Shown here: positions 42,063 through 62,297 of the stretch, piece after piece
Position numbering within the stretch: the stretch's first letter is position 1
How the letters are laid out: each line of letters opens with the position of its first letter
Origin: Giardia intestinalis
Lineage: Eukaryota
NCBI GenBank assembly: GCA_000002435.2
Contig: CM018793.1
Direction: 5' to 3' (one strand)
DNA: 64,000 nt
Position numbers and translations under genes: made by a program
Notes under the pieces: model-generated
The model's input: only the letters and a program-made list of their open reading frames with translations
What the model was told of the DNA's origin: nothing
The model's database searches: none

Positions 42063-44786
42063 CTATATCGACTTGGAGGGAATGAGCGTCATAGTACTGG
42101 GGGACGCATCGATGCGTCTGCCCCTAAAAATGAACCACCAGCAAAGGAAACCGACCAAGGCACCGATGGCGACCATAGCGACGGAGATTTCCATAATGGT
42201 CCTCATGGAGAGGCTGCTCTTGTTCGTGCTTCTGCCAGTACTGTTGCCATCTTTCATGAGGTAGCAGAGGACGGAGCCAGTATTGCTACCAATAGGAGGG
42301 ACACAGTTTAAGCAACCCTTGACACTAGTGATTGCATTGCCATCAGTTCCACTGTTACTTGTGCATTTCACGCATTTATTGTCAGTGGTTTTGTAATACC
42401 CTGCTAAGCAATCTGTGCAGGTTTCCTTACTACCCGCACACTTCACACATCCTTCAGTACACGCCGGACATTTTCCTCCAGCTGGGCTTTGTCCATTGGC
42501 ACACGTTTGGCATTGTCCCTTATTCTGTGCAGCCGTACATACAGAGCTACCAGGAAGCTTCTGTGTGTTGTAGCATCCGCCCGATAACAGAGCGTAGTTT
42601 GCTCCACACTCAGTGCATTTCCCGCCACTTGCCTTACATCCGGAGGCATCCCTCGCTGTTGCAGGTATGGATGTGCAGACGCCGTCGACTGGGGCGTACC
42701 CCTCCTCGCACTGATCGCAGTACTTCGAGCCTCCGACGTTCAGTGAGCAGCCGTCGGCCTTGCAGTGGGCCATAAAGTCTCCCGTGCACTCTTTTATGCA
42801 CGTTCCTGTGTCATCAGATGACCGACTCAGCACATACCCCGGATAGCAGGCCGTACACGACGTTTCTGCGTTAGTACTACAGCTTGCGCATGTATTGTGA
42901 CAGGAAGCGCAAATGCCGGTACTGTCACGATTATCGGGATATGTGCCGGCAGGGCACTCCTCCAGACATGCATCATTAAGGGGGCTCAGTCTTTTGGTCT
43001 CACACCCAGAGCACGTAACTATTGGACCTGCTCTTGCAGACGCTGCCTTGAGAGAGCACTTTGCACAGTCGGCTATGCCACCATTAGCAGTATCGCTGCA
43101 CTTAGCGCACACCTTCTTGCCCTGTGCATCGGTCGTGGGGAAGAATCCATCCTTACACTCCTCTGCACTGACACAGCTGGGTGTCTCACCAGCTTTGAAG
43201 TAGAGCCCGTCCTTACACTCTTCACATATATTATCCACCACACAGCTCTTGCAGTTGGTGTCAGAGCACAGCACACACCCACTGCCACCCTTGTTGGGCA
43301 CCTTACTATTGTCACAGGAGGTACAGACAGCGGGGGTCATACCACCATCAGATGGAGCTGTCGGGGCCTTACATTGTGAGCAGCCCTCGACCCCCACATA
43401 TGCCTTAGCAGTACCTTGAGGATCTACTAGTGTGCCTAGAGGATTGCCACAAGCTAGCACAGACTGATCAGTAGCCTGTGCCTCTGGTACTACGAAGTAC
43501 TTATTACTTGCCGCTTCTGTGCATATCCCACTACTATCTGCTTTCTTGCACATATGACTACCTGGTACTTGACCAACCTTATAACAGCCATTCATGTACA
43601 AGAAGTAATCAGCAGTACACTGTGTGCATGTATGACTGTCACAAGTATTAGCTCCCTTCTTACCACTATCACTAGTGCATATACCATCTATAGGAGCTTG
43701 TGAACTATCTCCACAATAGGAACAGTAGTGCTTTGCATTGCCCTTATCATCTATTATCATGGCATCGCAGGCACCAGAAGTACCACCACAAGCCGTGGGG
43801 TCCTCGCAGGTCTTCACACATGTATAGTCATCATTTGCATCTTCATTGGACTGCTTCTTATAGTTGGGCTTACAGTCAGTGCACTTGAACCCATTATTGT
43901 TAGAACATAGACTACAGCCTTCGTGGCCCCCATTGGTTGTATCACTACAAGCAACGCACTTCTTCCCCTGTGGATCTGTAGTAGTTACCAAGAAGTATCC
44001 CGGCATGCATGTATCACACTTATTTGGATCACCAGCAACAGAACATGTGGCACAGTTATCACCACAAGCATCACAAGCTGTATCACTAGTCTTAAAGAAG
44101 CCCGGAAGGCACTTAGTGCATTGTTGTGCTGCAGTACAGGTTGCACAATTAGGAACTCCCTTAGATTCATCACCACACAAAAGGCACGCAGTATCACCAT
44201 CTTTGAAATGATAATCATCTTGGCATCCAGAGCTCATATCAACACAGGTTGTTGTCCCATCCAGCTCTGTCTTCACCTTCTTACCGTTACAGGCACTGCA
44301 CACCGGCTTCTGTAGCTTTGCATCGTACGTGCAAGCAGTGCACTCTGGTATGCCCCCCTGATCTGCTGCACCGTTACAGGCTGTGCACTTCCCAGTGCTT
44401 GGGTCGGGGTACTTATCTCCATTACAACTGCTAGCCTCTACACAATTGTTCCCATCGAGATATTTCCCGCTCGCACAGAGAGTGCACTTAGTTGCGCCCT
44501 CACCGCTGCAAGTCAGACAAGCTTTATCGCAGACTTTGCATTCGTTGGTATTGGGTGATTTGTATGATCCGGCAGCACACTCTGTACATGTAACTACTCC
44601 TGCACTCTGTGGTGCCTGACACTGTGCGCAGTTGGCCACTCCCATGACCCCGTTTCTATCTGTAGTATCCCAGCACAAGATGCACTCGCTACCAGGCTTC
44701 GGTGTTGCATCAGGGTTCTGGAATATGTACTTGTTATCTGCCTTACAAGCAGTGCACAGTCCATCACTGGCTGCTGTGCATATCAC
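42063..44786 (-). CDS. High-cysteine membrane protein (HCMP/VSP-like), 907 aa as an ORF, with C-terminal TM + RGRRIDASPSTMTLIPSKSI tail. The ORF has no ATG near its 5' end (the tracked 'M' is GTG at 44784-44786, with an in-frame TAG just upstream at 44793-44795) and no signal peptide. Probably 5'-truncated or a pseudogene.
   Basis: CXXC/EGF-like modules throughout (CTACKADNKYIF; CAKCSDTANGG; CTECGANYALLSGGCY). TM helix AMVAIGALVGFLCWWFIF. First ATG only ~47 codons in. 5' end lies 90 bp from the VSP stop. Confidence 0.55.
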   Translation of the reverse strand: MICTAASDGLCTACKADNKYIFQNPDATPKPGSECILCWDTTDRNGVMGVANCAQCQAPQSAGVVTCTECAAGSYKSPNTNECKVCDKACLTCSGEGATKCTLCASGKYLDGNNCVEASSCNGDKYPDPSTGKCTACNGAADQGGIPECTACTYDAKLQKPVCSACNGKKVKTELDGTTTCVDMSSGCQDDYHFKDGDTACLLCGDESKGVPNCATCTAAQQCTKCLPGFFKTSDTACDACGDNCATCSVAGDPNKCDTCMPGYFLVTTTDPQGKKCVACSDTTNGGHEGCSLCSNNNGFKCTDCKPNYKKQSNEDANDDYTCVKTCEDPTACGGTSGACDAMIIDDKGNAKHYCSYCGDSSQAPIDGICTSDSGKKGANTCDSHTCTQCTADYFLYMNGCYKVGQVPGSHMCKKADSSGICTEAASNKYFVVPEAQATDQSVLACGNPLGTLVDPQGTAKAYVGVEGCSQCKAPTAPSDGGMTPAVCTSCDNSKVPNKGGSGCVLCSDTNCKSCVVDNICEECKDGLYFKAGETPSCVSAEECKDGFFPTTDAQGKKVCAKCSDTANGGIADCAKCSLKAASARAGPIVTCSGCETKRLSPLNDACLEECPAGTYPDNRDSTGICASCHNTCASCSTNAETSCTACYPGYVLSRSSDDTGTCIKECTGDFMAHCKADGCSLNVGGSKYCDQCEEGYAPVDGVCTSIPATARDASGCKASGGKCTECGANYALLSGGCYNTQKLPGSSVCTAAQNKGQCQTCANGQSPAGGKCPACTEGCVKCAGSKETCTDCLAGYYKTTDNKCVKCTSNSGTDGNAITSVKGCLNCVPPIGSNTGSVLCYLMKDGNSTGRSTNKSSLSMRTIMEISVAMVAIGALVGFLCWWFIFRGRRIDASPSTMTLIPSKSI

Positions 44787-44790
44787 ACTC

Positions 44791-44850
44791 CACTATCACC
44801 CATTATCACCCACTATCACCCACTATCACCTTCTATCACACACTATCACA
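44791..44850. repeat. Six imperfect tandem copies of the 10-mer CACTATCACC in the 90-bp spacer between the VSP stop and the truncated HCMP ORF.
   Basis: cactatcacc cattatcacc cactatcacc cactatcacc ttctatcaca cactatcaca, read directly from the sequence. Confidence 0.8.
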
Positions 44851-44875
44851 CATTGTACAGCATTCACTACCTAAG

Positions 44876-47800
44876 TCACGCCTTCCCCCTGCAGAGGAAC
44901 CACCAGCAGAGGAAGCCCACGAGGCCCCCCACGACGACGACCACAGCGACGGAGATCCCCGCGATAGCCCCCGTGGAGAGCCCGCTACTCTTGTTTGTGC
45001 TACCGCTATCATTTATGAGGTAGCAGACGACAGATCCTTGATTATTAGGTGGAGGAGCGCAGCTCATGCAGCCAGCAACTCCCTTGACACTTCCACTGTT
45101 GCTGTCACACGAAATACATGTGTTTGGCCCTGACCCGACCATATAGTACCCAGCTGCGCATGACGTACACTTATCAGAGCTATCTGCAGTCGAGCATGTC
45201 TTGCAGGTCGAATGACACGAGGGGCATGCTCCATCATTGGGCTGAAGACTATTGGCGCACGTCTGACATCCACCATTGCTATCAGCTAGTGTGCATATCT
45301 GTATGCCAGGTTGTCTGCCGAGTTTATAGCAGCCTCCATCTTGAAGGAAATGATCTGCAGCACACTGAGTGCATACGCCACCTGCTGCGTTCGTGCAGAA
45401 TGAATTCCTTGTTACTGAATTAGCGCACACGCCATTCTGAGGTGCCCACTTATCTTCCTTGCATTTTGAACAGTACTTCGTACCGCCGATTACCGCTCCA
45501 CACTCTGCACACCCGTCCACCTCTGCTTTGCACTCATCTACACAAGATCCACCTTGATTAGGATCATCATTGGTGTACTGGAGCCTCTTCCCGGGAGGAC
45601 ACAGCGTGCACTTCGCTGGCCCCTTTGTGGTGCACCCAGCACAGCTAGGATCACAAGGCTCGCACGCTTTGTCTCCATCATAGTAGCTTCCTATTGCTCC
45701 GCAGCTCTGCGTGCACTGCTTTGTCGGGGTGAGGTAATCGCCGTCATTACATTCAGTGCAGATTTCGTTGTCTGTTTTGGGGTTGTCACAGGTCTTACAG
45801 TTGGGAGTATTGCAGGCCGTCTCTGATACGCACGTCGTCCCGTCCGACGAGGGCTTGTTCCCAGGCGTGCACTCGCAGACCCCACTATTTTCTGTGGTCA
45901 CGCTCGGAGGGCACGAAGCGATGCAGCCCTTCTTGTCCGGCCTGACCTTCTTTGAGGACGAGCAGGTGAGGCAGGTTTGTGCGCTACCCGTGCCGGTGCA
46001 GGTCGCACAGCCCGCGGTGGTCAAGGGGTCCTCGCATTGATCTGCGTTTGGGACGCACGTCGTCCCGTCCGACGAGGGCTTGTTCCCAGGCGTGCACTCG
46101 CAGACCCCACTATTTTCTGTGGTCACGCTCGGAGGGCACGAAGCGATGCAGCCCTTCTTGTCCGGCCTGACCTTCTTTGAGGACGAGCAGGTGAGGCAGG
46201 TTTGTGCGCTACCCGTGCCGGTGCAGGTCGCACAGCCCGCGGTGGTCAAGGGGTCCTCGCATTGATCTGCGTTTGGGACGCACGTCGTCCCGTCCGACGA
46301 GGGCTTGTTCCCAGGCGTGCACTCGCAGACCCCACTATTTTCTGTGGTCACGCTCGGAGGGCACGAAGCGATGCAGCCCTTCTTGTCCGGCCTGACCTTC
46401 TTTGAGGACGAGCAGGTGAGGCAGGTTTGTGCGCTACCCGTGCCGGTGCAGGTCGCACAGCCCGCGGTGGTCAAGGGGTCCTCGCATTGATCTGCGTTTG
46501 GGACGCACGTCGTCCCGTCCGACGAGGGCTTGTTCCCAGGCGTGCACTCGCAGACCCCACTATTTTCTGTGGTCACGCTCGGAGGGCACGAAGCGATGCA
46601 GCCCTTCTTGTCCGGCCTGACCTTCTTTGAGGACGAGCAGGTGAGGCAGGTTTGTGCGCTACCCGTGCCGGTGCAGGTCGCACAGCCCGCGGTGGTCAAG
46701 GGGTCCTCGCATTGATCTGCGTTTGGGACGCACGTCGTCCCGTCCGACGAGGGCTTGTTCCCAGGCGTGCACTCGCAGACCCCACTATTTTCTGTGGTCA
46801 CGCTCGGAGGGCACGAAGCGATGCAGCCCTTCTTGTCCGGCCTGACCTTCTTTGAGGACGAGCAGGTGAGGCAGGTTTGTGCGCTACCCGTGCCGGTGCA
46901 GGTCGCACAGCCCGCGGTGGTCAAGGGGTCCTCGCATTGATCTGCGTTTGGGACGCACGTCGTCCCGTCCGACGAGGGCTTGTTCCCAGGCGTGCACTCG
47001 CAGACCCCACTATTTTCTGTGGTCACGCTCGGAGGGCACGAAGCGATGCAGCCCTTCTTGTCCGGCCTGACCTTCTTTGAGGACGAGCAGGTGAGGCAGG
47101 TTTGTGCGCTACCCGTGCCGGTGCAGGTCGCACAGCCCGCGGTGGTCAAGGGGTCCTCGCATTGATCTGCGTTTGGGACGCACGTCGTCCCGTCCGACGA
47201 GGGCTTGTTCCCAGGCGTGCACTCGCAGACCCCACTATTTTCTGTGGTCACGCTCGGAGGGCACGAAGCGATGCAGCCCTTCTTGTCCGGCCTGACCTTC
47301 TTTGAGGACGAGCAGGTGAGGCAGGTTTGTGCGCTACCCGTGCCGGTGCAGGTCGCACAGCCCGCGGTGGTCAAGGGGTCCTCGCATTGATCTGCGTTTG
47401 GGACGCACGTCGTCCCGTCCGACGAGGGCTTGTTCCCAGGCGTGCACTCGCAGACCCCACTATTTTCTGTGGTCACGCTCGGAGGGCACGAAGCGATGCA
47501 GCCCTTCTTGTCCGGCCTGACCTTCTTTGAGGACGAGCAGGTGAGGCAGGTTTGTGCGCTACCCGTGCCGGTGCAGGTCGCACAGCCCGCGGTGGTCAAG
47601 GGGTCCTCGCATTGATCTGCGTTTGGGACGCACGTCGTCCCGTCCGACGAGGGCTTGTTCCCAGGCGTGCACTCGCAGACCCCACTATTTTCTGTGGTCA
47701 CGCTCGGAGGGCACGAAGCGATGCAGCCCTTCTTGTCCGGCCTGACCTTCTTTGAGGACGAGCAGGTGAGGCAGGTTTGTGCGCTACCCGTGCCGGTGCA

Positions 47801-50641
47801 GGTCGCACAGCCCGCGGTGGTCAAGGGGTCCTCGCATTGATCTGCGTTTGGGACGCACGTCGTCCCGTCCGACGAGGGCTTGTTCCCAGGCGTGCACTCG
47901 CAGACCCCACTATTTTCTGTGGTCACGCTCGGAGGGCACGAAGCGATGCAGCCCTTCTTGTCCGGCCTGACCTTCTTTGAGGACGAGCAGGTGAGGCAGG
48001 TTTGTGCGCTACCCGTGCCGGTGCAGGTCGCACAGCCCGCGGTGGTCAAGGGGTCCTCGCATTGATCTGCGTTTGGGACGCACGTCGTCCCGTCCGACGA
48101 GGGCTTGTTCCCAGGCGTGCACTCGCAGACCCCACTATTTTCTGTGGTCACGCTCGGAGGGCACGAAGCGATGCAGCCCTTCTTGTCCGGCCTGACCTTC
48201 TTTGAGGACGAGCAGGTGAGGCAGGTTTGTGCGCTACCCGTGCCGGTGCAGGTCGCACAGCCCGCGGTGGTCAAGGGGTCCTCGCATTGATCTGCGTTTG
48301 GGACGCACGTCGTCCCGTCCGACGAGGGCTTGTTCCCAGGCGTGCACTCGCAGACCCCACTATTTTCTGTGGTCACGCTCGGAGGGCACGAAGCGATGCA
48401 GCCCTTCTTGTCCGGCCTGACCTTCTTTGAGGACGAGCAGGTGAGGCAGGTTTGTGCGCTACCCGTGCCGGTGCAGGTCGCACAGCCCGCGGTGGTCAAG
48501 GGGTCCTCGCATTGATCTGCGTTTGGGACGCACGTCGTCCCGTCCGACGAGGGCTTGTTCCCAGGCGTGCACTCGCAGACCCCACTATTTTCTGTGGTCA
48601 CGCTCGGAGGGCACGAAGCGATGCAGCCCTTCTTGTCCGGCCTGACCTTCTTTGAGGACGAGCAGGTGAGGCAGGTTTGTGCGCTACCCGTGCCGGTGCA
48701 GGTCGCACAGCCCGCGGTGGTCAAGGGGTCCTCGCATTGATCTGCGTTTGGGACGCACGTCGTCCCGTCCGACGAGGGCTTGTTCCCAGGCGTGCACTCG
48801 CAGACCCCACTATTTTCTGTGGTCACGCTCGGAGGGCACGAAGCGATGCAGCCCTTCTTGTCCGGCCTGACCTTCTTTGAGGACGAGCAGGTGAGGCAGG
48901 TTTGTGCGCTACCCGTGCCGGTGCAGGTCGCACAGCCCGCGGTGGTCAAGGGGTCCTCGCATTGATCTGCGTTTGGGACGCACGTCGTCCCGTCCGACGA
49001 GGGCTTGTTCCCAGGCGTGCACTCGCAGACCCCACTATTTTCTGTGGTCACGCTCGGAGGGCACGAAGCGATGCAGCCCTTCTTGTCCGGCCTGACCTTC
49101 TTTGAGGACGAGCAGGTGAGGCAGGTTTGTGCGCTACCCGTGCCGGTGCAGGTCGCACAGCCCGCGGTGGTCAAGGGGTCCTCGCATTGATCTGCGTTTG
49201 GGACGCACGTCGTCCCGTCCGACGAGGGCTTGTTCCCAGGCGTGCACTCGCAGACCCCACTATTTTCTGTGGTCACGCTCGGAGGGCACGAAGCGATGCA
49301 GCCCTTCTTGTCCGGCCTGACCTTCTTTGAGGACGAGCAGGTGAGGCAGGTTTGTGCGCTACCCGTGCCGGTGCAGGTCGCACAGCCCGCGGTGGTCAAG
49401 GGGTCCTCGCATTGATCTGCGTTTGGGACGCACGTCGTCCCGTCCGACGAGGGCTTGTTCCCAGGCGTGCACTCGCAGACCCCACTATTTTCTGTGGTCA
49501 CGCTCGGAGGGCACGAAGCGATGCAGCCCTTCTTGTCCGGCCTGACCTTCTTTGAGGACGAGCAGGTGAGGCAGGTTTGTGCGCTACCCGTGCCGGTGCA
49601 GGTCGCACAGCCCGCGGTGGTCAAGGGGTCCTCGCATTGATCTGCGTTTGGGACGCACGTCGTCCCGTCCGACGAGGGCTTGTTCCCAGGCGTGCACTCG
49701 CAGACCCCACTATTTTCTGTGGTCACGCTCGGAGGGCACGAAGCGATGCAGCCCTTCTTGTCCGGCCTGACCTTCTTTGAGGACGAGCAGGTGAGGCAGG
49801 TTTGTGCGCTACCCGTGCCGGTGCAGGTCGCACAGCCCGCGGTGGTCAAGGGGTCCTCGCATTGATCTGCGTTTGGGACGCACGTCGTCCCGTCCGACGA
49901 GGGCTTGTTCCCAGGCGTGCACTCGCAGACCCCACTATTTTCTGTGGTCACGCTCGGAGGGCACGAAGCGATGCAGCCCTTCTTGTCCGGCCTGACCTTC
50001 TTTGAGGACGAGCAGGTGAGGCAGGTTTGTGCGCTACCCGTGCCGGTGCAGGTCGCACAGCCCGCGGTGGTCAAGGGGTCCTCGCATTGATCTGCGTTTG
50101 GGACGCACGTCGTCCCGTCCGACGAGGGCTTGTTCCCAGGCGTGCACTCGCAGACCCCACTATTTTCTGTGGTCACGCTCGGAGGGCACGAAGCGATGCA
50201 GCCCTTCTTGTCCGGCCTGACCTTCTTTGAGGACGAGCAGGTGAGGCAGGTTTGTGCGCTACCCGTGCCGGTGCAGGTCGCACAGCCCGCGGTGGTCAAG
50301 GGGTCCTCGCATTGATCTGCGTTTGGGACGCACGTCGTCCCGTCCGACGAGGGCTTGTTCCCAGGCGTGCACTCGCAGACCCCACTATTTTCTGTGGTCA
50401 CGCTCGGAGGGCACGAAGCGATGCAGCCCTTCTTGTCCGGCCTGACCTTCTTTGAGGACGAGCAGGTGAGGCAGGTTTGTGCGCTACCCGTGCCGGTGCA
50501 GGTCGCACAGCCCGCGGTGGTCAAGGGGTCCTCGCATTGATCTGCGTTTGGGACGCACGTCTGCCCGTTCGCCGACGGCGTGTTCCCAGCCTTGCAGTTT
50601 GCCCGTGCTACTGTACAAAATAGAAGAAGCCCTAGCAACAT
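44876..50641 (-). CDS. Variant-specific surface protein (VSP), 1921 aa. It has a signal peptide, 21 identical 75-aa tandem repeats plus one divergent N-proximal copy, and a membrane-proximal Cys-rich region. The C-terminus is a TM helix plus the invariant CRGKA tail.
   Basis: N-terminus [14 protein letters not shown]. Repeat unit [75 protein letters not shown] with CXXC motifs. C-terminus ...[23 protein letters not shown]. ATG at 50639-50641. Confidence 0.9.
   Translation of the reverse strand: [1921 protein letters not shown]
45830..50555. repeat. Tandem array of 21 x 225 bp inside the VSP coding region. The units appear identical at nucleotide level. There is a divergent extra unit at the 5' (N-terminal) end, and the junction at the 3' end also differs.
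   Basis: Period measured directly: 'gcacgtcgtcccgtccgacgagggc' recurs at 45830, 46055, ... with constant 225-nt spacing. The + strand antisense ORFs (MFPGVHSQTPLF...) recur every 225 nt from 46080 to 50355 with identical translations. The last unit diverges at 50555 (gcacgtctgcccgttcgccgac). Confidence 0.9.
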
Positions 50642-50787
50642 TAGCCGGAACCTACACTCGGTTATCGACTCGCATCTGCTCTTCGAAGGATTGCAACAGT
50701 AAAACTATGGACTACCACCAACCTAATTGTAGATCAATGCGTTGAGAATAACGAGCTCTAATGGATGTGTCACCATTCAGTGGCTAG

Positions 50788-51476: not shown

Positions 51477-52148
51477 ATGAGTCTTGGCGCGACTGGCGAA
51501 AATGAGTTTCAGTACTACACAATAGAGCGGATTATCCAAGGATGTATAATAGGCGACAAAAAGGTGGGAAAAACAACGATCATCCGCAGATTGTCCTGTT
51601 TGATGAATACTCTGAGCGGCGACATACGCGACGACTCCATTAACAAGGTTTCAGGCATTTATAGCTATCAGGAGTTATCCATTGGGATCCGCTTGTTTGA
51701 CTACCCGCGCCTCGGGGCACTGGACTCCGATGAAATTTTTCAGCTCCTCACAGATATGCAAGGCGTCATCTTTGTTTGTGATATCAATGATAAGGAGTCT
51801 ATAGCTACTGCAGCCAGGGGCGCTGAGTGCATTCGCGCCAAGCGCCCAGAACTAGTTATCTTACTGGTCTTCAACAAGGATGACGGAGACTATGATCGCT
51901 TGGTTCCCACAAACGTCGAATTGCAGGCCGTTGCCGCAAAGAGCGGATCCATCTGCCTACGCTGCAGTGCAAAAGAGAACTACAACATGGAGGACCTCTT
52001 GTTCAATTTTGTGGATAACATTGTGAATCCCAATCAGCAATATATGAAGTTTTGTCTGGCCAAGTCCATAAGTTTGACAAAACTTAAGACAGGGGAGTCC
52101 CAAAAGAATAACGCACACGGGGACAAGAAAGGCTGCTCCGTGATGTGA
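51477..52148 (+). CDS. Divergent Ras-superfamily small GTPase with a C-terminal CAAX box, 223 aa.
   Basis: G1 GDKKVGKT. G4 NKDD (VFNKDDGD). G5 CSAK. C-terminal CSVM prenylation motif. Switch II reads LFDYPRLGA instead of WDTAGQE, i.e. no catalytic Gln. Confidence 0.6.
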   Translation: MSLGATGENEFQYYTIERIIQGCIIGDKKVGKTTIIRRLSCLMNTLSGDIRDDSINKVSGIYSYQELSIGIRLFDYPRLGALDSDEIFQLLTDMQGVIFVCDINDKESIATAARGAECIRAKRPELVILLVFNKDDGDYDRLVPTNVELQAVAAKSGSICLRCSAKENYNMEDLLFNFVDNIVNPNQQYMKFCLAKSISLTKLKTGESQKNNAHGDKKGCSVM

Positions 52149-52236
52149 CCCCGTGAGTTTACTGATTTTCAGCCGTGCACGTTTCCAAAATTATATTAAA
52201 TTTATTAAGTTTCTGCTTAAAGTATTCTAAAAAGAA

Positions 52237-53526
52237 ATGTCTTTGCCCTCCACCGTGCAGCTCAACTGCGGCCAGACGCTTCCGGGCAGGTATGCAAAGT
52301 CTGCCCTGAGTGAGCACCTTTCGGACGATCATGGCATCCCCCTTCCCGAGTACATCAACCTTTATAAACATTTTGCAAGTCAGCCAGGCGTCGGTCTAGT
52401 GATTTCGGGCCACATGATGGTTTCGAGGGAAGGACGAGGAGAACTGGGGAACGTTTGCTTCTCTAAGAGCGACTTTGAGAATGCTGAGACACCCTTGATA
52501 TCTCAGCTCAAGAAAACTGTAGAGGCCTCACGCAAAGGGAACCCTGATGTCAAGTTGCTGGCGCAAATAAACCACTGCGGAAGACAGATACCGAAAAAAG
52601 TCTTGAAGGCCAACTTCACTGAAGATAGCAAGTCTCACTACAAAGGCAAGGCCATCTCCTTTTACGACCGCGCATGTCCAGGGCTCTCGCTGATGTTCCC
52701 CAAACCTCTATGCATCAAGGATGAGCTTCCATTCTTTGAAAAGGGAGATGCTGCCAATTCGCCTATTCTGAACGAGCTCGTGGAGGAGTATAGCCAGACG
52801 GCTGAATGTGTGGTCCACAAATGTGGGTACGACGGGGTCCAACTTCACACAGCTCATGGATATCTGATGAGTGATATAGTCACCAATGGAGGCTGGGCTG
52901 TGTTTAGAAAGACTCTAGAAGCATGTCGAGCGAAAATCGGGTCTAGTTCTATTTTGGGCGTTAAAATTAACATTCCCGACACGGATTTGTCTGTCAAGGA
53001 GTACAGTGATAACCTTATTGCGATCGCTAATGACGAAGCAATCCTCCTTGATTTCATCGAGTTTTCAGCTGGGAGCTATAGCAAGCCTGTGATGATGTCC
53101 TCGGCTGGACACTTCACTCTGGACTTTGGAACCATTTTCAGGCAAGCCCTAGAAACTACCAAGTCGGGTTGCAAGGTTATGGTTACAGGACGATTCACAT
53201 CTGCGGAGATGGCAGACAAGGCAATTAGTGAGTCCAAGGTGGATCTGGTTGGCTTTGGCCGCGCATTCTGCCTCCCCCAGCCGTTTGACGAAAGCACGAC
53301 ACGCATCATCCGTGGAGGGCTGCCACTTTCCAAGTTCTCTGCGTCCATCATTTATCAGCTGGCAAAGCTAGTGCCGATGGTTTCGACCGGCCCCAACACC
53401 ATGTATTGGGCGGGCTGGATGGCTAAAGTTGCACGCGGCGAAGTCTCCACAAACAAGGAGGTTGAGGACTACAAGATAAAGGGCACGGGCCTCACTTGGT
53501 ATATCTCCACGCTGATGAAACTGTAA
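52237..53526 (+). CDS. FMN-dependent NADH:flavin oxidoreductase of the Old Yellow Enzyme / TIM-barrel family, 429 aa.
   Basis: YDGVQLHTAHGYLMSDIV matches the OYE active-site region (DGVEIHGAHGYLL.QFL). Length and N-terminal (S/T)xxLP-type segment are consistent. Confidence 0.55.
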   Translation: MSLPSTVQLNCGQTLPGRYAKSALSEHLSDDHGIPLPEYINLYKHFASQPGVGLVISGHMMVSREGRGELGNVCFSKSDFENAETPLISQLKKTVEASRKGNPDVKLLAQINHCGRQIPKKVLKANFTEDSKSHYKGKAISFYDRACPGLSLMFPKPLCIKDELPFFEKGDAANSPILNELVEEYSQTAECVVHKCGYDGVQLHTAHGYLMSDIVTNGGWAVFRKTLEACRAKIGSSSILGVKINIPDTDLSVKEYSDNLIAIANDEAILLDFIEFSAGSYSKPVMMSSAGHFTLDFGTIFRQALETTKSGCKVMVTGRFTSAEMADKAISESKVDLVGFGRAFCLPQPFDESTTRIIRGGLPLSKFSASIIYQLAKLVPMVSTGPNTMYWAGWMAKVARGEVSTNKEVEDYKIKGTGLTWYISTLMKL

Positions 53527-53545: not shown

Positions 53546-56500
53546 TCATCCAATGTGCTGGCGAAGCAGGGCCTCGATTGACTTCTTAATCTCTGCATTG
53601 GCATGTCTAGCGGCTTCTGTGGCATAATGAAGAGCGGATCTGCCCCTTCTGTCGCGAAGCCGAATCTCCTTAGGGATAAGCATACGAACGCAGTCTATGT
53701 GGCCAAACTGGCAAGCCCACATGAGGGCTGTTGTGCCCCATGCAGTCTGAATCTTAGCCTCACTTCCTATCAGCAGAGCAACTATCTGTTTATGGCCTGC
53801 GCCTGCAGCCAGCATAAGAGCGGTAATCCCCTCGGCATCCTGCAGCGCGCCCTGCGTTGGTATAAGAGACCACACTGCGTAAACATCATTGTTCTCGGCC
53901 GCAGACATGAGCTGTGTCCTTGTTCCGTTCACGCGCTCGATGGGTTCTACTTCAAGGCCCTCAGCCTTGCGCAGCTTCTCTGCAACTTCGTAGTGTCCTC
54001 GGTGAAGGGCAATGTGGATTGCCATTTGCCCTGATGAATCCTTTATCCCAGCTTCTTTTTCCAACAGAAGAGGCACGGAGCTCACTCTATTGTATTCAGC
54101 CGCAAGCATAAGTGCCGTCTTGCCATCTGGGGCAACTTGTCCGGCATACTCCAGGTTAGCTTCGATGTCTGATGCCTTGCCTTTCATAATGGCTCTCATA
54201 AGAGGAGTGTATGTAGCCAATCGTGCCTCTAGTAACGCGCTAGCTTGTTCGCCCGATAGTCCGAACGTCATCTTAAGTGCTCCCTTAGATCTCTCCTCCA
54301 GCTTTGGAGCAACGTGGTTGTCTGTGTCATAAAACTCTATGTGGTGCGAAGCCGAAACCTTGGAGGTCTTTTGCGAGGATTTATGCGAAGAAGACACATG
54401 CTTGGAAGAAGAGGCACTGGATCGAGAACGCGATTTCGATGACGAGCGCACAGAATTCCTACTAGCATTAGCCGCGGAACCCTTTTTGTCCTCAACCATC
54501 TGCAGCTCTCCGCCGATAGCATTGGTCAGCTCGTGTTTGAGCTTTTCGTTTTCCTCAGCTAGTTCGTCTATCTGCTCCTCGAGCTTTGTTGTGGTGTCCA
54601 CCAAGGCCTTGACCACGATGTCATGGTTGAAGGTTTCTTCCTCAGTTATTCTAGCAATTGCAGCAACGACCTTGGCTGCGGCTGAGACAGACCGAACATT
54701 CCGGCTAATGGCTGAAGGCTGCGCCTTCGCAGCCTTCTTCATCTTCTCGTTCTCCTTTTCTAGGGTTTCCAGGCGGTTCACGACATTATCAAGCTGCTTC
54801 TTCTGCTTTTTGAGAGCCGACTCTTGCGACTTTGAGTGAGCAAGGCTACTATCGAGTGCCGCGAGTATTTGTTTCTTTTCGTCAATGGTGCGTTGTAGAC
54901 AGTCTTCCACAATCTTTAGTTCATTGATGTGCTGTTGTCGGTTCTCTGCAGTATCTGTTTCTTTCTCCAAATCAATCCCCACGCTACGTGCCGGGGGCAC
55001 ATTCATATCGATAAGACCGCTCTTCACCAACATCGAATCAGTGCCTCCGTGGCTACCAAAACTCTTGTGCACTGCAGCCTCTGCATCAGGAGTCTCAGTG
55101 CGCACATTTTCAAGTGTAGCACAATGGTGCGATTCTGTATGATTGCCTTCATCTTTTGTGCTCCCTGGACGCGGTTGTGCAGACGTAGCACTATGAAGCT
55201 TCTTCTCTGTTATGCGAAGAAGATCCTTGGTTTCACTGAGCTGCTCGGATTGGAGCCTAAACTCAAGATTAAGCGACTGATATTTCTGTTCAAGGCTTTC
55301 GTTTTTCGCCGTTAGACGATCTAGCTTTCCTTTCAACAGCTTCAGCTGAGTTTCTTGTGTCTCTACCTGCATTTGCAGCTCATCACGCTCCTGTCTAAGG
55401 TCACTTAGTTCTGCCTCATTAGACTCATTCTGTGTAGCGTTGTTACCAATTGCTGACTCTATGTCTGCAATTGCCTTGAACATATTTTCTTTCTTGAGTG
55501 ATTGCTCTGTCTCCTCTAGTTTTTGTTCTAAGACATTGCACTTGTCCTTGGCATCTCTAAGAGCTTCCTGGAGCGCTACTATTTCAATCTGCTTAGCGTC
55601 CAGCTCTGCACTCTTCTCCCCATGCTCTAATGTTTTGTTTGCAAGCCTGTTTTCTGTGTCTACTAAAGTGTTCTCGGTATTCTTCAAAGTACATAACAGT
55701 TGGTCATTTTCTGCCCTCAGATCATTCACCTCTGCCTGAAGCTTCTCTTGAATTGCAGATTGCTCTGCTAGTTGAGCAGAAAGATCATCAATGGAGTTCT
55801 GCTGACCATTCTTCTCCAACAGCTCTGCCACTTGGTGAGTTGCATCACTCAGCTTATCTGTTAGCTCTTGCACCTCTCTACGCAAGCACTCTTCCTGACC
55901 AGTGAGTGTGTCCCTTTGTTCCTTTAACTCCACTACTTCATCTCGGGCGCTGGAGAGGTTCACAACTAGCTCAGAGTTACGGCCCTCAAGCTCCTGCAAA
56001 AGAGCCTGAAGTCTCTCGATTTCAGCATCCTTGTCAGCAGCAAGAGCTTCAATGGCTGACGCATCAGAATCCTTCTTGTCAGTGATGTTCATTATGTAAA
56101 GAGCAAGGCTGTCATGTCCATTTGCTTGAGCATTTTCTGCAGCTGCCATTCGTGCTGATGTGTCAAAGGGACACTCATGCAGTAGACTCTCCACACACTC
56201 ATGATGTCCGGCCCTCGACGCATAGTCCAACGCAGTTAGTCCCATGTTATCAGACTCGTTCCCGTAATGGAAGAATAGAACACGGAGCGCGTGTATACTT
56301 CCTGCTTCTGCTGCAACCATTAGAGGAGTCACGGAGTCATCTCTTCGGCAATCTGAAAGATAGGGGAGGAGAATTGGAATGCACGACGATACATCCAGCT
56401 TAGCGGCCAGCATGAGCGCATTGTCCCCATCATTGTTTGTAAGCTTTGCTTCTTGCTCAACTAATAGTCTGACCATTTTCGGATCATCGTTTTGTACTGC

Positions 56501-56620
56501 GAGCATCAGACCCGTAAGCCCGTCTGCATTCTGGGTCCCAGCAAACAAGGAGATGCCTTCCTGGACTGTGTGGTAGTCACGCGACACAATAGCGTCAAAC
56601 CAGCGCTCTGGGTCGTCCAT
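53546..56620 (-). CDS. Ankyrin-repeat + coiled-coil protein, Protein 21.1 family, 1024 aa.
   Basis: N-terminus MDDPERWFDAIVSRDYHTVQ. Ankyrin repeats (GLTGLMLAVQNDDPKMVRLLV; GLTALDYASRAGHHECVESLL). Long coiled coil. C-terminal ankyrin repeats (GKTALMLAAEYNRVSSVPLLL; GITALMLAAGAGHKQIVALLI; GRSALHYATEAARHANAEI). Confidence 0.8.
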   Translation of the reverse strand: MDDPERWFDAIVSRDYHTVQEGISLFAGTQNADGLTGLMLAVQNDDPKMVRLLVEQEAKLTNNDGDNALMLAAKLDVSSCIPILLPYLSDCRRDDSVTPLMVAAEAGSIHALRVLFFHYGNESDNMGLTALDYASRAGHHECVESLLHECPFDTSARMAAAENAQANGHDSLALYIMNITDKKDSDASAIEALAADKDAEIERLQALLQELEGRNSELVVNLSSARDEVVELKEQRDTLTGQEECLRREVQELTDKLSDATHQVAELLEKNGQQNSIDDLSAQLAEQSAIQEKLQAEVNDLRAENDQLLCTLKNTENTLVDTENRLANKTLEHGEKSAELDAKQIEIVALQEALRDAKDKCNVLEQKLEETEQSLKKENMFKAIADIESAIGNNATQNESNEAELSDLRQERDELQMQVETQETQLKLLKGKLDRLTAKNESLEQKYQSLNLEFRLQSEQLSETKDLLRITEKKLHSATSAQPRPGSTKDEGNHTESHHCATLENVRTETPDAEAAVHKSFGSHGGTDSMLVKSGLIDMNVPPARSVGIDLEKETDTAENRQQHINELKIVEDCLQRTIDEKKQILAALDSSLAHSKSQESALKKQKKQLDNVVNRLETLEKENEKMKKAAKAQPSAISRNVRSVSAAAKVVAAIARITEEETFNHDIVVKALVDTTTKLEEQIDELAEENEKLKHELTNAIGGELQMVEDKKGSAANASRNSVRSSSKSRSRSSASSSKHVSSSHKSSQKTSKVSASHHIEFYDTDNHVAPKLEERSKGALKMTFGLSGEQASALLEARLATYTPLMRAIMKGKASDIEANLEYAGQVAPDGKTALMLAAEYNRVSSVPLLLEKEAGIKDSSGQMAIHIALHRGHYEVAEKLRKAEGLEVEPIERVNGTRTQLMSAAENNDVYAVWSLIPTQGALQDAEGITALMLAAGAGHKQIVALLIGSEAKIQTAWGTTALMWACQFGHIDCVRMLIPKEIRLRDRRGRSALHYATEAARHANAEIKKSIEALLRQHIG

Positions 56621-56790
56621 AGCTTACTCTAATTTTAAATTTTGAACTTTATCGCAACTTATAACTTCTTGCTAGAACTCTGGAATCTCCTTAAACCGGG
56701 AGGTGTATGATGGCAGTCGATTGATCGGGAGTTAGTACCATGTTTTTATGACTTTACATAAGGTCTTGCCACTTCACAATCGAGGAGTAT

Positions 56791-59700
56791 TTACATGTTT
56801 GACTCCACATAGGATAAAACCTTTGCTCGCGTCTTAAAATCAACGCTACTACAGGGGTATCTTGCATAGGAAAGGGCCGTCTTTCCACTGGTGCTGACTA
56901 TAGATTTTTCTTTGTGGAAAAGAAGACGCACAATGGACAAGTGCCCATAGAAACACGCTAACATCAATGCAGTTTGATGGGGAGCTAACAGTGAATCGGG
57001 AGACCCGACAAGACCGCATTCTTTGTCTGCTAGAAACTGGCAGATTGAGAGGTGGCCATTGCGGGCTGCCAACATCAGGGCAGATCCGCCCTGTAAATTT
57101 TGTTTCCCCGCTTCATCTCCCAATTCGGCCAAGATGCGAACAATGGGATACGCTCCTTTTTCCGCAGCATACATGAGTGCCGTATAGCCATTTCGGTCTT
57201 GAACTCCTGCTTGGAGCGGCAGCAGGCAGTAGACAGCAACAATATCATTGCGCTGGACAGCCATCATTAGGTCTGTAAGGCCATTATCAGGCGTCATCAA
57301 GGTGGTGATACTAAGAGAGCTAGTCGCAAGACTCTCTGTACAATTGCCTTTGGCTCTCCTTAAGACAGGAACACCTGCTGTATTTATCCCTTCCCTCTTC
57401 ACAAGGAGATCTGCGATGGCGAAGTGACTATTATGTAGGCTTATACTAAGGGCTGTCTCCCCCGCCTTACTGACCATTCCTGCCTCAGAACTAAGTAGCC
57501 GTGTCACGGCATCAAGATTGTTACACTCAGCAGCAACCATGAGGGCAGTCTTTCCATCAGGAGTTGTCATTCCTGCTTGGTCAATATAGACTGAAAGCCC
57601 TACTCGATCTCGTTTTAGGACAGCAGTCATAAGGTCTGTGTAACCTGACAGCTTACTTAGCGACGGGGCCTCTGCACTAGTATCAGCATTATTCTGATAC
57701 ACCAGTGCTCTGTATGCCTCTTTGATTTGACTCAACTCAGCCGATAGCTGACTGTTCTCGTACTGCAAATTCCGAATGTCACTGGCATTATCAGATAGAG
57801 ACTTATGTTCGTTGATAATATCGTGCGGTTCTTCTTGATTAGAAGGTTCAGAATGCACATTACTGACATCCATGGTATAGTGAGACATAAGACATGCCTG
57901 CTGAGAACGGATCGACTGTTCTCCCTCATTGTAATTTAACGACTTTTCATTGATGCCGATCCCAATAGACCTATTTGCCATCAAAGACGTATTCAATGAG
58001 GCACTCTTGTTTAGTAAGCTTGTTTCTATGCTACGATTAACTTGCTCAATTAGATTATTATATTGTTCCTCATCAATGTTCAAAGCGGAAAGAGCAACGT
58101 CTTCCATGGCCTTCTGCAAATCAGGTGACTCTCCTTGGAGTTTAGAAATAAGAAGCTTAAGCCCATCAATTTCGTTTTCCTTTTCTAAAATAACGCGTAT
58201 ATGTGCTTCTAGTTGTTCTCTCGTTGATAGAAGTTCCTCACGCACGATGTTATAATTGTTCAAATACTCTTCTGCGCGAGTCCTAAAATACGACGTTTCT
58301 TGAATCTGTTCATTGAGACGTGTGTTGAGGTCATTAACTATATTATCATACTCGGCATCATGTTGGGGCTCATCGCATGCTAACGTTGCACATGCTGAGC
58401 CAGGAGTTACTTTTTTGCTGTCACGACTTGCAGGACACGTTTGAATGGATACGTCTGCACTTGTTACTATCCGTGATTGCGCGCTGATCGTCTTGGGTTC
58501 CTTTCTCAGACCCTCGAGCTCTTTCTCAAGCTCCTCAAGTTGCTTGCACTTCCGTACATATCCATCCTTATACTTCTTTGACTTGTGCTTTAGGTCCTCT
58601 GCCTCTGTGCTACGGGATTGCACAATTTCCAAAGCTGCCTTTAGCTCGGCATTGGCCATCCGAAGCTCTAGAACCTCCTTGTGCGCGATCTCCAATCCAT
58701 GCTCATACTTTGCAAGCTCTTGTGCAGTAGCTTCCTTAATGGCATCACTGCTGAAACTCTTTGAATCGATATATGCGGTCTTATACTTCTTAACCTTTTG
58801 CTTCAGCTCACTAATCTCATCCTCTTTGGAACGAATAGTGGAGGAAAGCTCGTCTGTAATTTTATTGATGGATAGAGTCTTTACCTCTAACTCAGAGCGC
58901 AAATGCATGAGCTCTCTATTCATTTGGTCCTCTAGTGACTGTTTAGCATCTAAGGTTGCTCTGCTCAGCTCTGTTGAAAGTTTGTGATTTTCATTACGAA
59001 GCAGGTCTAACTCAGACCGAAGAACTTGGTGATGATCCAATAGTTCCGAATGCTCTATGGAGAGATGCCTGAGACGATTGTCGGAATCTTCCATTGCAAC
59101 TTTAGCTTCATCTAGAGCCTTTTTCATGGTGCTATTCTCAGCTGTTACAACCTTAAGTGTGGCCTCTAATTCAATTACTTTAGACTTAGCTGTTGCCACA
59201 CTCTCGTTAGTGGCGTCCAATCTTTTCAGAAGGTCCTCATTAAGAATTAGGGTAGAATCTAGCTTTACCTCTTTCGAAATTAAGTCCTGTCGCGTTTGTG
59301 ACAAGGTATCTTCGACTGCCTTTTTATCATGTGCTAGCTCAAGATTATCTCTCTTTAAGGCAAAGATCTCTTGATCAAGGGCACTGAGTCTTGCTTGAAG
59401 CTCTTCATTAGTCATCTTCTCTGTCTCTAGCATGCGTTTATTGACCATGTCAGTAGTTGCAAGGTCCAACTTATGCTCTAGTGTACTAATCTGAATCTCT
59501 TTCATGTGCTTTTCTTCAGTAAGGCCCTCCACCGCACGCGTCTTGCTATCCAGCTCTGCATGGAAGGCGTGTGATTGTGCAGATAGAAGGTTTCTCAATT
59601 CATCTATCTGCGAATCCTGTGTATTCTTAAGAGCGGTTACCTCGTCAAAGGCCGCTCGTAGTTCTTGGTAGCTGGTCATGAGGGTGTCTCTATCTAGCCT

Positions 59701-62259: not shown

Positions 62260-62297
62260 CAAGGTGTCTGTTAGAAATTTAGATTTACTAGTTTGGC

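What the first reader, a model, noticed from the sequence alone, without database searches (positions are those of the whole stretch)
45830..50555. VSP gene with 21 apparently perfectly identical 225-bp (75-aa) tandem repeats
Every unit I compared is identical to the base; only the unit nearest the signal peptide differs (NTPSANGQTCVPNADQ...). Each unit carries 10 Cys including two CXXC motifs, so the array encodes ~210 disulfide-capable cysteines in a row. Repeat-containing VSPs are known in Giardia (e.g. CRP170-type with 65-aa units), but a 75-aa unit at zero divergence implies very recent expansion or strong concerted evolution. The array also makes copy number a hypervariable, immunologically relevant character. 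At 4.7 kb of perfect periodicity, the true copy number in the organism cannot be trusted from a short-read assembly.
Basis: seen in the sequence. Interest (0 to 1): 0.7.

Follow-up and report, generated by a model that had tools for sequence, protein, structure and literature searches.

The report
Known Giardia VSP with 21 repeats
This is the already catalogued Giardia surface-antigen gene VSP AS7 (vsp21, GL50803_137717), whose 225-bp repeat is present 21 times without a single base difference; that is real but ordinary for this gene family.

Summary
ORF 44876-50641 (minus strand, 1921 aa) contains a 225-bp period that is mismatch-free over 45828-50561, which is 4734 bp or 21.04 units. A 23-nt diverged edge lies next to the signal peptide.

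The protein is a canonical Giardia variant-specific surface protein (VSP). It has a signal peptide, 13% Cys, 56 CXXC, GGCY, a transmembrane segment plus CRGKA, a TAatgTT initiator, and Pfam VSP at E=1.7e-83.

It is letter-for-letter KAE8305145.1 / XP_001709261.2 of G. intestinalis WB C6. Adam et al. 2010 already list it as vsp21 = AS7 = AY142136 = GL50803_137717, "TR225". They warn that assemblies condense repeat numbers. The older public versions (646 and 721 aa) equal this protein minus exactly 17 and 16 units.

The 21-copy version matches the 2020 PacBio reference (200x, read N50 12.7 kb), which is not a short-read assembly.

Zero divergence is not special to this gene. Six other WB VSPs carry protein-perfect arrays of 65-80 aa x 10-26. 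The closest paralogue shares the array boundary but has 63-65% identical units. A DH-isolate gene has two DNA-identical units that differ from WB at 19 of 225 nt. This pattern indicates concerted evolution by unequal recombination, which is inferred rather than shown.

Verdict: already known, low interest.

The parts
44876..50641 (-). Complete CDS of VSP AS7 (vsp21, GL50803_137717). It encodes 1921 aa, about 192 kDa.
   Evidence: ORF list and translation. Pfam PF03302 VSP at E=1.7e-83. Exact identity to KAE8305145.1 / XP_001709261.2. Mass.
50637..50643 (-). Candidate initiator element TAatgTT spanning the start codon.
   Evidence: Sequence read (ggcTAATGTTgct). The PyAatgTT consensus and the 'TAATGTT' entry for vsp21 are in PMC2996952.
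50600..50641 (-). N-terminal signal peptide, roughly MLLGLLLFCTVARA. The cleavage site is inferred.
   Evidence: Translation. A 14-17 aa VSP signal peptide is described in PMC2996952. No signal-peptide predictor was available.
50562..50584 (-). Diverged 5' edge of the array, a partial unit. It has 6 nt differences from the internal units: K>T, S>A, D>N, T>Q and one silent change.
45828..50561 (-). Perfect tandem array of 21.04 copies of a 225-bp (75-aa) unit with no mismatch. Each unit has 10 Cys and 2 CXXC.
44969..45827 (-). Non-repetitive Cys-rich ectodomain region. Its first module has the same Cys spacing pattern as the repeat unit. It contains GGCY.
   Evidence: It is 69% identical to the same region of paralogue P0004.
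44894..44968 (-). Hydrophobic membrane anchor (AIAGISVAVVVVVGGLVGFLCWWFL).
   Evidence: Translation. The Pfam VSP best stretch covers residues 1783-1921.
44879..44893 (-). Invariant cytoplasmic tail CRGKA.
44863..44876 (-). ACTTAGGTAGTGAA, overlapping the stop codon. AGTGAA is the Giardia polyadenylation signal AGTRAA.
Evidence: Sequence read.
44790..44849 (.). Repeat of 10-bp period, 6 copies, filling the short spacer between the AS7 gene and the downstream VSP-like ORF.
42063..44786 (-). Downstream VSP-like ORF, probably a pseudo-VSP and the second member of a short linear array. It has no ATG or signal peptide at its start, and its tail has degenerated to ...FLCWWFIFRGRR...
   Evidence: Pfam VSP at E=4.3e-76. 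Sequence. Not in the protein collection. The pattern of downstream array members without Inr/ATG is described in PMC2996952 and PMC7000408.

Best explanation
The feature is the coding sequence of a known Giardia intestinalis (assemblage A1, isolate WB clone C6) variant-specific surface protein: VSP AS7, also called vsp21 or GL50803_137717.

The protein is a type-I membrane protein. It has a cleaved signal peptide and then 21 identical 75-residue cysteine-rich modules. Each module has 10 Cys, which are inferred to form five disulfides, in a furin-like / EGF-receptor-type Cys-rich fold. A 286-residue non-repetitive Cys-rich region follows, then a membrane anchor and the CRGKA tail.

Like other VSPs, it would be one of the roughly 130-300 alternative coat proteins, of which a trophozoite displays one at a time. 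If expressed, the array would present the same epitope 21 times on a long, protease-resistant stalk.

The zero divergence between units is best explained by continuing homogenisation of the array, that is, concerted evolution. The likely routes are unequal sister-chromatid or inter-allelic recombination, gene conversion and replication slippage between 225-bp units. The same processes change copy number. The edge of the array escapes homogenisation and has diverged.

What is shown here: gene identity, anatomy, perfect periodicity, and the paralogue and DH-isolate comparisons. What is inferred: disulfide pairing, surface display of this particular VSP, and the recombination mechanism and its rate.
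For: Identity:
- The product exactly matches KAE8305145.1 / XP_001709261.2 'VSP [Giardia intestinalis WB C6]'. It clusters with AAN52110.1 'variant-specific surface protein AS7'.
- Adam 2010 supplement: vsp21, AS7, AY142136, 137717, TR225, chromosome 5, Inr TAATGTT, 646 aa.
- The 646-aa and 721-aa versions equal the window protein minus exactly 17 and 16 units.

VSP features:
- Pfam PF03302 at E=1.7e-83.
- CRGKA, membrane anchor and GGCY.
- TAatgTT initiator.
- AGTGAA just after the stop codon.

Array.

Generality: P0004 (75 aa x10.2), P0005 (74 x26), P0006 (74 x16.3), P0007 (75 x11.2), P0008 (80 x18.7) and P0013 (65 x10.7) all have protein-perfect arrays. Six of the units (all but the 65-aa P0013 unit) share a 10-Cys skeleton.

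Concerted evolution:
- P0004 has a nearly identical signal peptide and the same junction, DGTTCV|SETACNTPNCK. Its C-terminal region is 69% identical and its units 63-65% identical, yet units within each array are 100% identical.
- The DH (assemblage A2) gene P0017 has two DNA-identical units. Both differ from the WB unit at the same 19 of 225 nt, 10 synonymous and 9 non-synonymous.
- Only the 5' edge unit has diverged.

Fold:
- An AF2 model of two units, built with a 6-sequence alignment, has pLDDT 79.7.
- This agrees with the Pfam GF_recep_IV and cEGF hits.

Family background: allelic copy-number variation in vspA6 and vspC5, and immunodominance of the vspA6 repeat (PMC2996952). The mAb 6E7 epitope lies inside the 65-aa repeat (PMC7332775).
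Against: - No reads were available, so neither the copy number (21) nor base-perfect identity could be checked against raw data. Quiver polishing of a tandem array could in principle erase rare unit-specific SNPs.
- Giardia is tetraploid, and the assembly gives one consensus allele.
- DNA of the paralogous WB arrays could not be fetched, so their perfection is shown only at protein level.
- The DH gene is not syntenic: it has different flanks and no unique C-terminal region. It comes from a fragmented draft record (AHGT01000036, a 105-kb contig), so its two-unit count may be collapsed.
- I found no evidence that this VSP is expressed. 137717 is absent from the supplements of the WB proteomics paper.
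Confidence: 0.9

Rival explanations
1. Assembly or polishing artefact. Under this reading the true locus has a different number of units, or several allelic lengths among the four genome copies. Alternatively the units carry some differences that consensus polishing homogenised.
For: Three public versions of the same gene carry 4, 5 and 21 units and are otherwise identical. [quoted passage not shown] The reference was polished with Quiver and then patched with 75-bp Illumina reads, which cannot be placed uniquely inside a 4.7-kb perfect array.
Against: The 21-unit version comes from 200x PacBio data with read N50 12.7 kb and 10% of reads >20 kb. The array plus flanks is therefore spanned by many single reads. 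BridgeMapper found no misassemblies. The Sanger-era sequences also show identical units. Six other arrays in the same genome are protein-perfect, as expected for a real biological property. Collapse explains the shorter old versions better than over-expansion explains the new one.
Confidence: 0.12
2. A single very recent amplification burst, with no continuing homogenisation. One unit would have been amplified 21-fold so recently that no mutation has yet occurred.
For: There is zero divergence across 4734 bp. Only one edge shows differences.
Against: The paralogue P0004 is about 31% diverged in its unique region. It nevertheless has an array of the same 75-aa unit type ending at the same junction. 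A repeat, or at least the unit and its boundary, therefore predates the duplication, yet each array is internally perfect. Seven independent arrays would all need simultaneous recent bursts. The DH units share 19 fixed differences from WB while being identical to each other.
Confidence: 0.15
3. The gene is not a bona fide VSP. It would instead be another Giardia high-cysteine protein (HCMP or HCP), or a pseudogene that is never displayed.
For: No expression evidence was found. Many VSP-like ORFs in WB are pseudogenes (208 pseudo-VSPs). The immediate downstream neighbour looks like one.
Against: All defining VSP features are present: a signal peptide, an intact ORF, the PyAatgTT initiator, a membrane anchor and an exact CRGKA tail. 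It is annotated as VSP, not pseudo-VSP, in the curated 2020 annotation. By contrast, the HCMP-like protein in the same window (12223-19812) lacks CRGKA and has a long tail.
Confidence: 0.04

Closest known systems
VSP AS7 / vsp21 / GL50803_137717 (GenBank AY142136, AAN52110.1; XP_001709261.1 and .2; KAE8305145.1)
   Same: It is the same gene. The sequence is identical residue for residue outside the copy number. The 225-bp repeat, the chromosome-5 location and the TAATGTT initiator are all listed in Adam 2010.
   Different: Only the number of units differs: 21 here and in XP_001709261.2, 5 in AAN52110.1, and 4 in the 2007 model. Adam 2010 lists 3.
vspA6 / CRP170 (vsp67, GL50803_221693)
   Same: The architecture is the same: a short 5' leader, more than 20 identical tandem units (195 bp / 65 aa, about 22-26 copies), then about 1.3 kb of unique sequence and the conserved tail (PMC2996952; PMC7332775). 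P0013 carries a perfect 65-aa array.
   Different: The unit differs in length and sequence: 8 Cys rather than 10, and only 11 of 65 residues align identically. For vspA6, the epitope, expression and allelic copy-number variation have been shown experimentally. For AS7 none of this was found.
WB paralogue P0004 (1099-aa VSP, 75-aa unit x10.2). It may be the 'LA_TR225' vsp95 of Adam 2010, but this was not verified.
   Same: The signal peptide is nearly identical, the unit length and 10-Cys skeleton are the same, and the array/unique junction is the same. The C-terminal region is 69% identical.
   Different: The units are only 63-65% identical, and there are 10 copies rather than 21. It lies on a different contig (1.54 Mb).
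vspC5 (vsp90) and the P0005-type VSPs
   Same: They carry many identical tandem Cys-rich units and have a documented copy-number uncertainty.
   Different: In these genes the repeats run directly into the conserved membrane anchor with no unique ectodomain region. vspC5 has a 105-bp unit and P0005 a 74-aa unit.
Furin-like cysteine-rich repeats (R-spondin Fu1-Fu2; EGFR/HER/IGF1R Cys-rich domains; Pfam GF_recep_IV)
   Same: These are disulfide-laddered beta-hairpin modules. They are the best structural matches to the 2-unit model and the source of the Pfam hits.

Membership tests
Giardia variant-specific surface proteins (VSP, Pfam PF03302) | Profile match to the VSP family above the curated cut-off. 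| tested here: met
   PF03302 scores 281 bits, E=1.7e-83, against a cut-off of 31.4.
Giardia variant-specific surface proteins (VSP, Pfam PF03302) | C-terminal hydrophobic anchor followed by the invariant CRGKA pentapeptide. | tested here: met
   The C-terminus reads ...GAIAGISVAVVVVVGGLVGFLCWWFLCRGKA*. The definition is in PMC2996952 and PMC7000408.
Giardia variant-specific surface proteins (VSP, Pfam PF03302) | N-terminal signal peptide of 14-17 aa. | tested here: inconclusive
   A hydrophobic MLLGLLLFCTVARA is present, and near-identical leaders occur in P0004 and P0017. No signal-peptide predictor was available. The curated annotation, which required a SignalP-positive leader for the label 'VSP', calls it VSP.
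Giardia variant-specific surface proteins (VSP, Pfam PF03302) | About 11-13% cysteine with frequent CXXC motifs; GGCY motif in most members. | tested here: met
   The protein has 253 Cys (13.2%), 56 CXXC and one GGCY at residue 1769.
Giardia variant-specific surface proteins (VSP, Pfam PF03302) | PyAatgTT initiator at the start codon. This marks expressed or first-in-array vsp genes. | tested here: met
   TAATGTT lies at 50643-50637. This matches the entry for vsp21.
Giardia variant-specific surface proteins (VSP, Pfam PF03302) | Mutually exclusive surface expression and switching, i.e. antigenic variation. | not testable with these tools
   This needs expression data. None was found for 137717.
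Tandem-repeat-containing VSPs (the 30 'TR' vsp genes of Adam 2010; prototypes vspA6 and vspC5) | In-frame head-to-tail repeats of 105-516 bp inside the ectodomain, directly after a 66-99 bp leader. | tested here: met
   The unit is 225 bp. The array starts at gene nt 58-81 and is in frame. The gene is listed as TR225.
Tandem-repeat-containing VSPs (the 30 'TR' vsp genes of Adam 2010; prototypes vspA6 and vspC5) | Allelic or clonal variation in repeat copy number. | tested here: inconclusive
   Public records carry 4, 5 and 21 units. This may reflect assembly or cloning collapse rather than real alleles.
Furin-like / growth-factor-receptor cysteine-rich repeat fold | Structural superposition on solved furin-like repeats with a significant score. 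| tested here: inconclusive

The most novel reading that the evidence does not exclude
At least seven separate VSP arrays in one genome are internally perfect: one at DNA level here and six at protein level. Their units are nevertheless only about 14-64% identical to one another. This could mean that Giardia homogenises intragenic VSP repeats unusually fast across all four genome copies. Repeat-number change would then be a second, genetic layer of surface-coat variation, in size and epitope valency, alongside epigenetic VSP switching. The evidence here does not exclude this, but it does not go beyond what was proposed for vspA6 and vspC5 in the 1990s.
Probability: 0.2. Interest if true: 0.4.

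Novelty: already known. Interest (0 to 1): 0.12.

Why it matters
The result has little value as a discovery. The gene, its 225-bp repeat, the family habit of identical tandem units and the copy-number caveat are all published.

It has some practical value:

- The repeat number of this gene rose from 3-5 to 21 between the Sanger-era and PacBio references. Any work that uses the old 646-aa model (mass, peptide mapping, primers, recombinant antigen) is out by about 127 kDa.
- The label 'VSPAS7' is applied in the literature to at least two other loci, GL_137740 and GL50803_101496. Functional claims made under that name do not necessarily concern this gene.
- The set of perfect arrays in the long-read reference is a ready-made data set for measuring homogenisation rates in a tetraploid, apparently asexual eukaryote.

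Tried and rejected
- The look-up of encoding contigs failed for the WB proteins P0001, P0004 and P0005 (not on record). DNA-level identity of the paralogous arrays and the chromosome coordinates of the window therefore could not be obtained.
- A metagenome scan with one unit plus the C-terminal region found only 26-38% identical Cys-rich proteins in compost and other metagenomes, and no Giardia orthologue.
- A PDB sequence search with the last repeat unit plus the C-terminal region found nothing.
- Single-sequence AlphaFold of three units was useless, with pLDDT 47. It was replaced by a 2-unit model built with a 6-paralogue alignment.
- The primary papers on vspA6 alleles (PMC308127, PMC186261) are not held. 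Their content is cited only through PMC2996952 and PMC7332775.
- A full-text search for '137717' returned nothing, and it is absent from the proteomics supplements.
- I checked whether the 'VSPAS7' of PMC10566177 (GL50803_101496) is this gene. Its forward primer is absent from the window. Its reverse primer matches only the conserved CRGKA tail, with 2 mismatches. It is a different gene.
- The Nanopore structural-variant paper (PMC7048089) has no statement about this locus or about intragenic repeats.
- I looked for further copies of the unit in the window and found none.
Full report
**Observation**

The window carries one long ORF on the minus strand, 44876-50641, encoding 1921 aa. Tandem Repeats Finder reports period 225, 21.2 copies, 99% matches and no indels over 45828-50596.

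A direct lag-225 comparison is mismatch-free from 45828 to 50336. The perfectly periodic tract is therefore 45828-50561, which is 4734 bp or 21.04 periods.

The unit count depends on the register:
- In the register TCVPNADQ...SSDGT there are 21 identical units followed by 9 nt of a 22nd.
A first unit differs at six bases (50562-50580), changing NKPSSDGT to NTPSANGQ.

Each unit has 10 Cys and two CXXC motifs. The protein has 253 Cys (13.2%) and 56 CXXC. The array is 63.6% GC against 48.4% for the window.

**What it is**

The protein has the full set of features that define a Giardia variant-specific surface protein:
- a hydrophobic leader, MLLGLLLFCTVARA;
- a Cys-rich ectodomain with a GGCY motif;
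- a hydrophobic anchor and the invariant CRGKA tail;
- Pfam PF03302 at E=1.7e-83;
- the PyAatgTT initiator, here TAatgTT, at the start codon (consensus from PMC2996952);
- ACTTAGGTAGTGAA overlapping the stop codon, which contains the AGTRAA poly(A) signal of Giardia. The reading of that motif rests on my own knowledge.

An exact look-up shows that the product is KAE8305145.1 / XP_001709261.2 / UniRef100_A0A644F945, 'VSP, Giardia intestinalis ATCC 50803 / WB clone C6', on a 4.02-Mb scaffold.

These equal the window protein with exactly 16 and 17 units removed, and nothing else changed.

**Prior knowledge**

The supplementary table of Adam et al. 2010 (PMC2996952) lists vsp21 = AS7 = AY142136 = GL50803_137717. 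The entry reads 'TR225', 225 nt per repeat, 3 repeats, chromosome 5, complete, Inr TAATGTT, 646 aa, 83 Cys, 22 CXXC.

The paper describes 30 repeat-containing vsp genes with units of 105-516 bp and 2 to more than 20 copies. It states that copy numbers are approximate because assemblies condense them. It notes allelic copy-number variation in vspA6 and vspC5 and the immunodominance of the vspA6 repeat.

The 1921-aa version matches the 2020 re-sequencing of WB C6. That project used PacBio RS II at 200x, with read N50 12.7 kb and 10% of reads >20 kb. Assembly was by HGAP/Quiver with optical maps and Illumina correction of homopolymer errors (PMC7000408).

The collapse occurred in the older Sanger-era records.

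**Is zero divergence special?**

It is not. Among the homologues returned for the whole protein, six other WB VSPs have arrays that are perfect at protein level:

| Protein | Unit length | Copies |
|---|---|---|
| P0004 | 75 aa | 10.2 |
| P0005 | 74 aa | 26.0 |
| P0006 | 74 aa | 16.3 |
| P0007 | 75 aa | 11.2 |
| P0008 | 80 aa | 18.7 |
| P0013 (the vspA6/CRP170 unit type) | 65 aa | 10.7 |

The 74-80 aa units share one 10-Cys skeleton, with spacings of about 6-8, 8, 2, 8, 2, 12, 3, 11 and 1 residues. They are only 36-65% identical to the AS7 unit. The first module of the non-repetitive region of AS7 has nearly the same Cys spacing. The repeat is therefore an amplified copy of the ordinary VSP module.

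**How the array is kept uniform (inferred)**

Three comparisons bear on this.

1. The closest paralogue, P0004, has almost the same signal peptide. Its array ends at the same junction, DGTTCV|SETACNTPNCK. Its unique region is 69% identical and its units 63-65% identical to those of AS7, yet each array is internally 100% identical. The unit and its boundary predate the gene duplication, and each array has been homogenised separately.

2. A VSP in the assemblage A2 isolate DH (P0017; GCA_000498715.1, AHGT01000036) has the same leader and two units that are identical to each other at DNA level. Both differ from the WB unit at the same 19 of 225 nt, 10 synonymous and 9 non-synonymous. This gene is not syntenic and runs straight from the repeats into the anchor. 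It comes from a fragmented draft record, so its copy number is unreliable.

3. Only the edge of the AS7 array has diverged. This is what unequal exchange predicts, because terminal units take part least.

Together these are the classic signature of concerted evolution by unequal recombination, gene conversion or slippage. The same processes would change copy number. A single recent burst is the main alternative, but it would have to have happened independently and simultaneously in seven genes.

**Fold of the unit**

Single-sequence AlphaFold failed, with pLDDT 47. With an alignment of the six paralogous units, a two-unit model reached pLDDT 79.7.

- Foldseek against the PDB gave R-spondin Fu1-Fu2 as the best hit (E=0.012, prob 0.89), followed by HER2/HER3, EGFR and IGF1R Cys-rich domains and EGF-like arrays.
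- Pfam GF_recep_IV and cEGF hits, summed over the repeats, point the same way.

The resemblance is weak but consistent. Each unit looks like a pair of disulfide-laddered furin-like hairpin modules, and 21 of them would make a long rod. The disulfide pairing is inferred. No solved structure is related by sequence to the last repeat unit plus the C-terminal region.

**Surroundings**

Directly downstream lies a 60-bp tract of a 10-bp repeat (44790-44849). After it comes a 907-codon VSP-like ORF (42063-44786, minus strand; Pfam VSP E=4.3e-76). This ORF has no ATG or leader at its start. Its tail has degenerated to FLCWWFIFRGRR.... It fits the 'downstream member of a linear array / pseudo-VSP' class described in PMC2996952 and PMC7000408.

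Upstream of AS7, across a spacer with no long ORF, are divergent housekeeping-type genes:
- a Ras-family GTPase, 51477-52148;
- an FMN oxidoreductase, 52237-53526;
- two ankyrin-repeat proteins.

A 2529-aa high-cysteine membrane protein-like gene lies at 12223-19812. The 225-bp unit has no other copy in the window.

**Nomenclature**

'VSPAS7' is used for GL_137740 in PMC5355454 and for GL50803_101496 in PMC10566177. The GenBank AS7 protein is this gene, and Adam 2010 maps AS7 to 137717. The primers for 101496 do not match the window, except in the conserved tail.

**What could not be done**

- No reads were available, so the count of 21 and the absence of inter-unit SNPs rest on the published assembly.
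- DNA for the other WB arrays could not be fetched.
- No close relative exists in the metagenome collection.
- No expression evidence for this gene was found.

**Verdict**

However, the gene, its 225-bp repeat, the copy-number caveat and the family-wide habit of identical units are all already documented. The 21-unit form is the current reference annotation.

Novelty: already known. Interest: low.

Noticed in passing
window 42063-44786 (-) and 44790-44849: Immediately downstream of AS7 is a 907-codon VSP-like ORF (Pfam VSP E=4.3e-76). It has no start codon or signal peptide at its 5' end, and its tail has degenerated (FLCWWFIFRGRR... instead of CRGKA). It is probably a pseudo-VSP forming a two-member linear array. 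The 89-bp spacer is mostly a 10-bp repeat, 6 copies of GTGATAGTGG-like units.
   Followed up: partly
window 12223-19812 (-): A 2529-aa Cys-rich protein with 13% Cys, 110 CXXC and 17 stretches matching Pfam VSP. It has a membrane anchor but a long non-CRGKA tail, so it is high-cysteine membrane protein-like. It accounts for the GC-rich block at 12-16 kb.
   Followed up: partly
literature (PMC5355454, PMC10566177, PMC2996952) versus window 44876-50641: The name 'VSPAS7' is attached to three different locus tags: GL_137740, GL50803_101496 and GL50803_137717. The GenBank AS7 protein (AAN52110.1) is the window gene. The macrophage-pyroptosis study cloned GL50803_101496, which is not in this window.
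   Followed up: yes
P0022 (ENA contigs of 3.1 kb or less) versus P0005; P0003 versus P0001: Short 'mini-VSPs' consisting of leader, one or two units and the anchor (P0022, P0018, P0016, P0017) have unit sequences closely related to those of the long-array VSPs; only P0022 versus P0005 was compared directly. P0022 is essentially P0005 with 26 units collapsed to one. This suggests that some of them are assembly collapses in short-read data rather than distinct genes.
   Followed up: partly
L005 10001-10690 (G. intestinalis DH, AHGT01000036): An assemblage A2 VSP has the AS7-type leader and two DNA-identical 75-aa units that are 92% identical to WB in protein. The repeats are fused directly to the anchor, and the gene sits in a different neighbourhood (cathepsin-like peptidase, ankyrin protein, Rpb8). 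It is unclear whether this is a real distinct gene or a chimeric or collapsed assembly.
   Followed up: partly
window 51477-53526 (+), 53546-62343 (-): Beyond the roughly 830-bp upstream spacer of AS7 lie ordinary genes: a Ras-family GTPase, an OYE-type FMN oxidoreductase and two large ankyrin-repeat proteins. The VSP therefore sits at a boundary between housekeeping and multigene-family DNA. Xu et al. report that synteny breaks occur at such regions enriched in multigene families.
   Followed up: no
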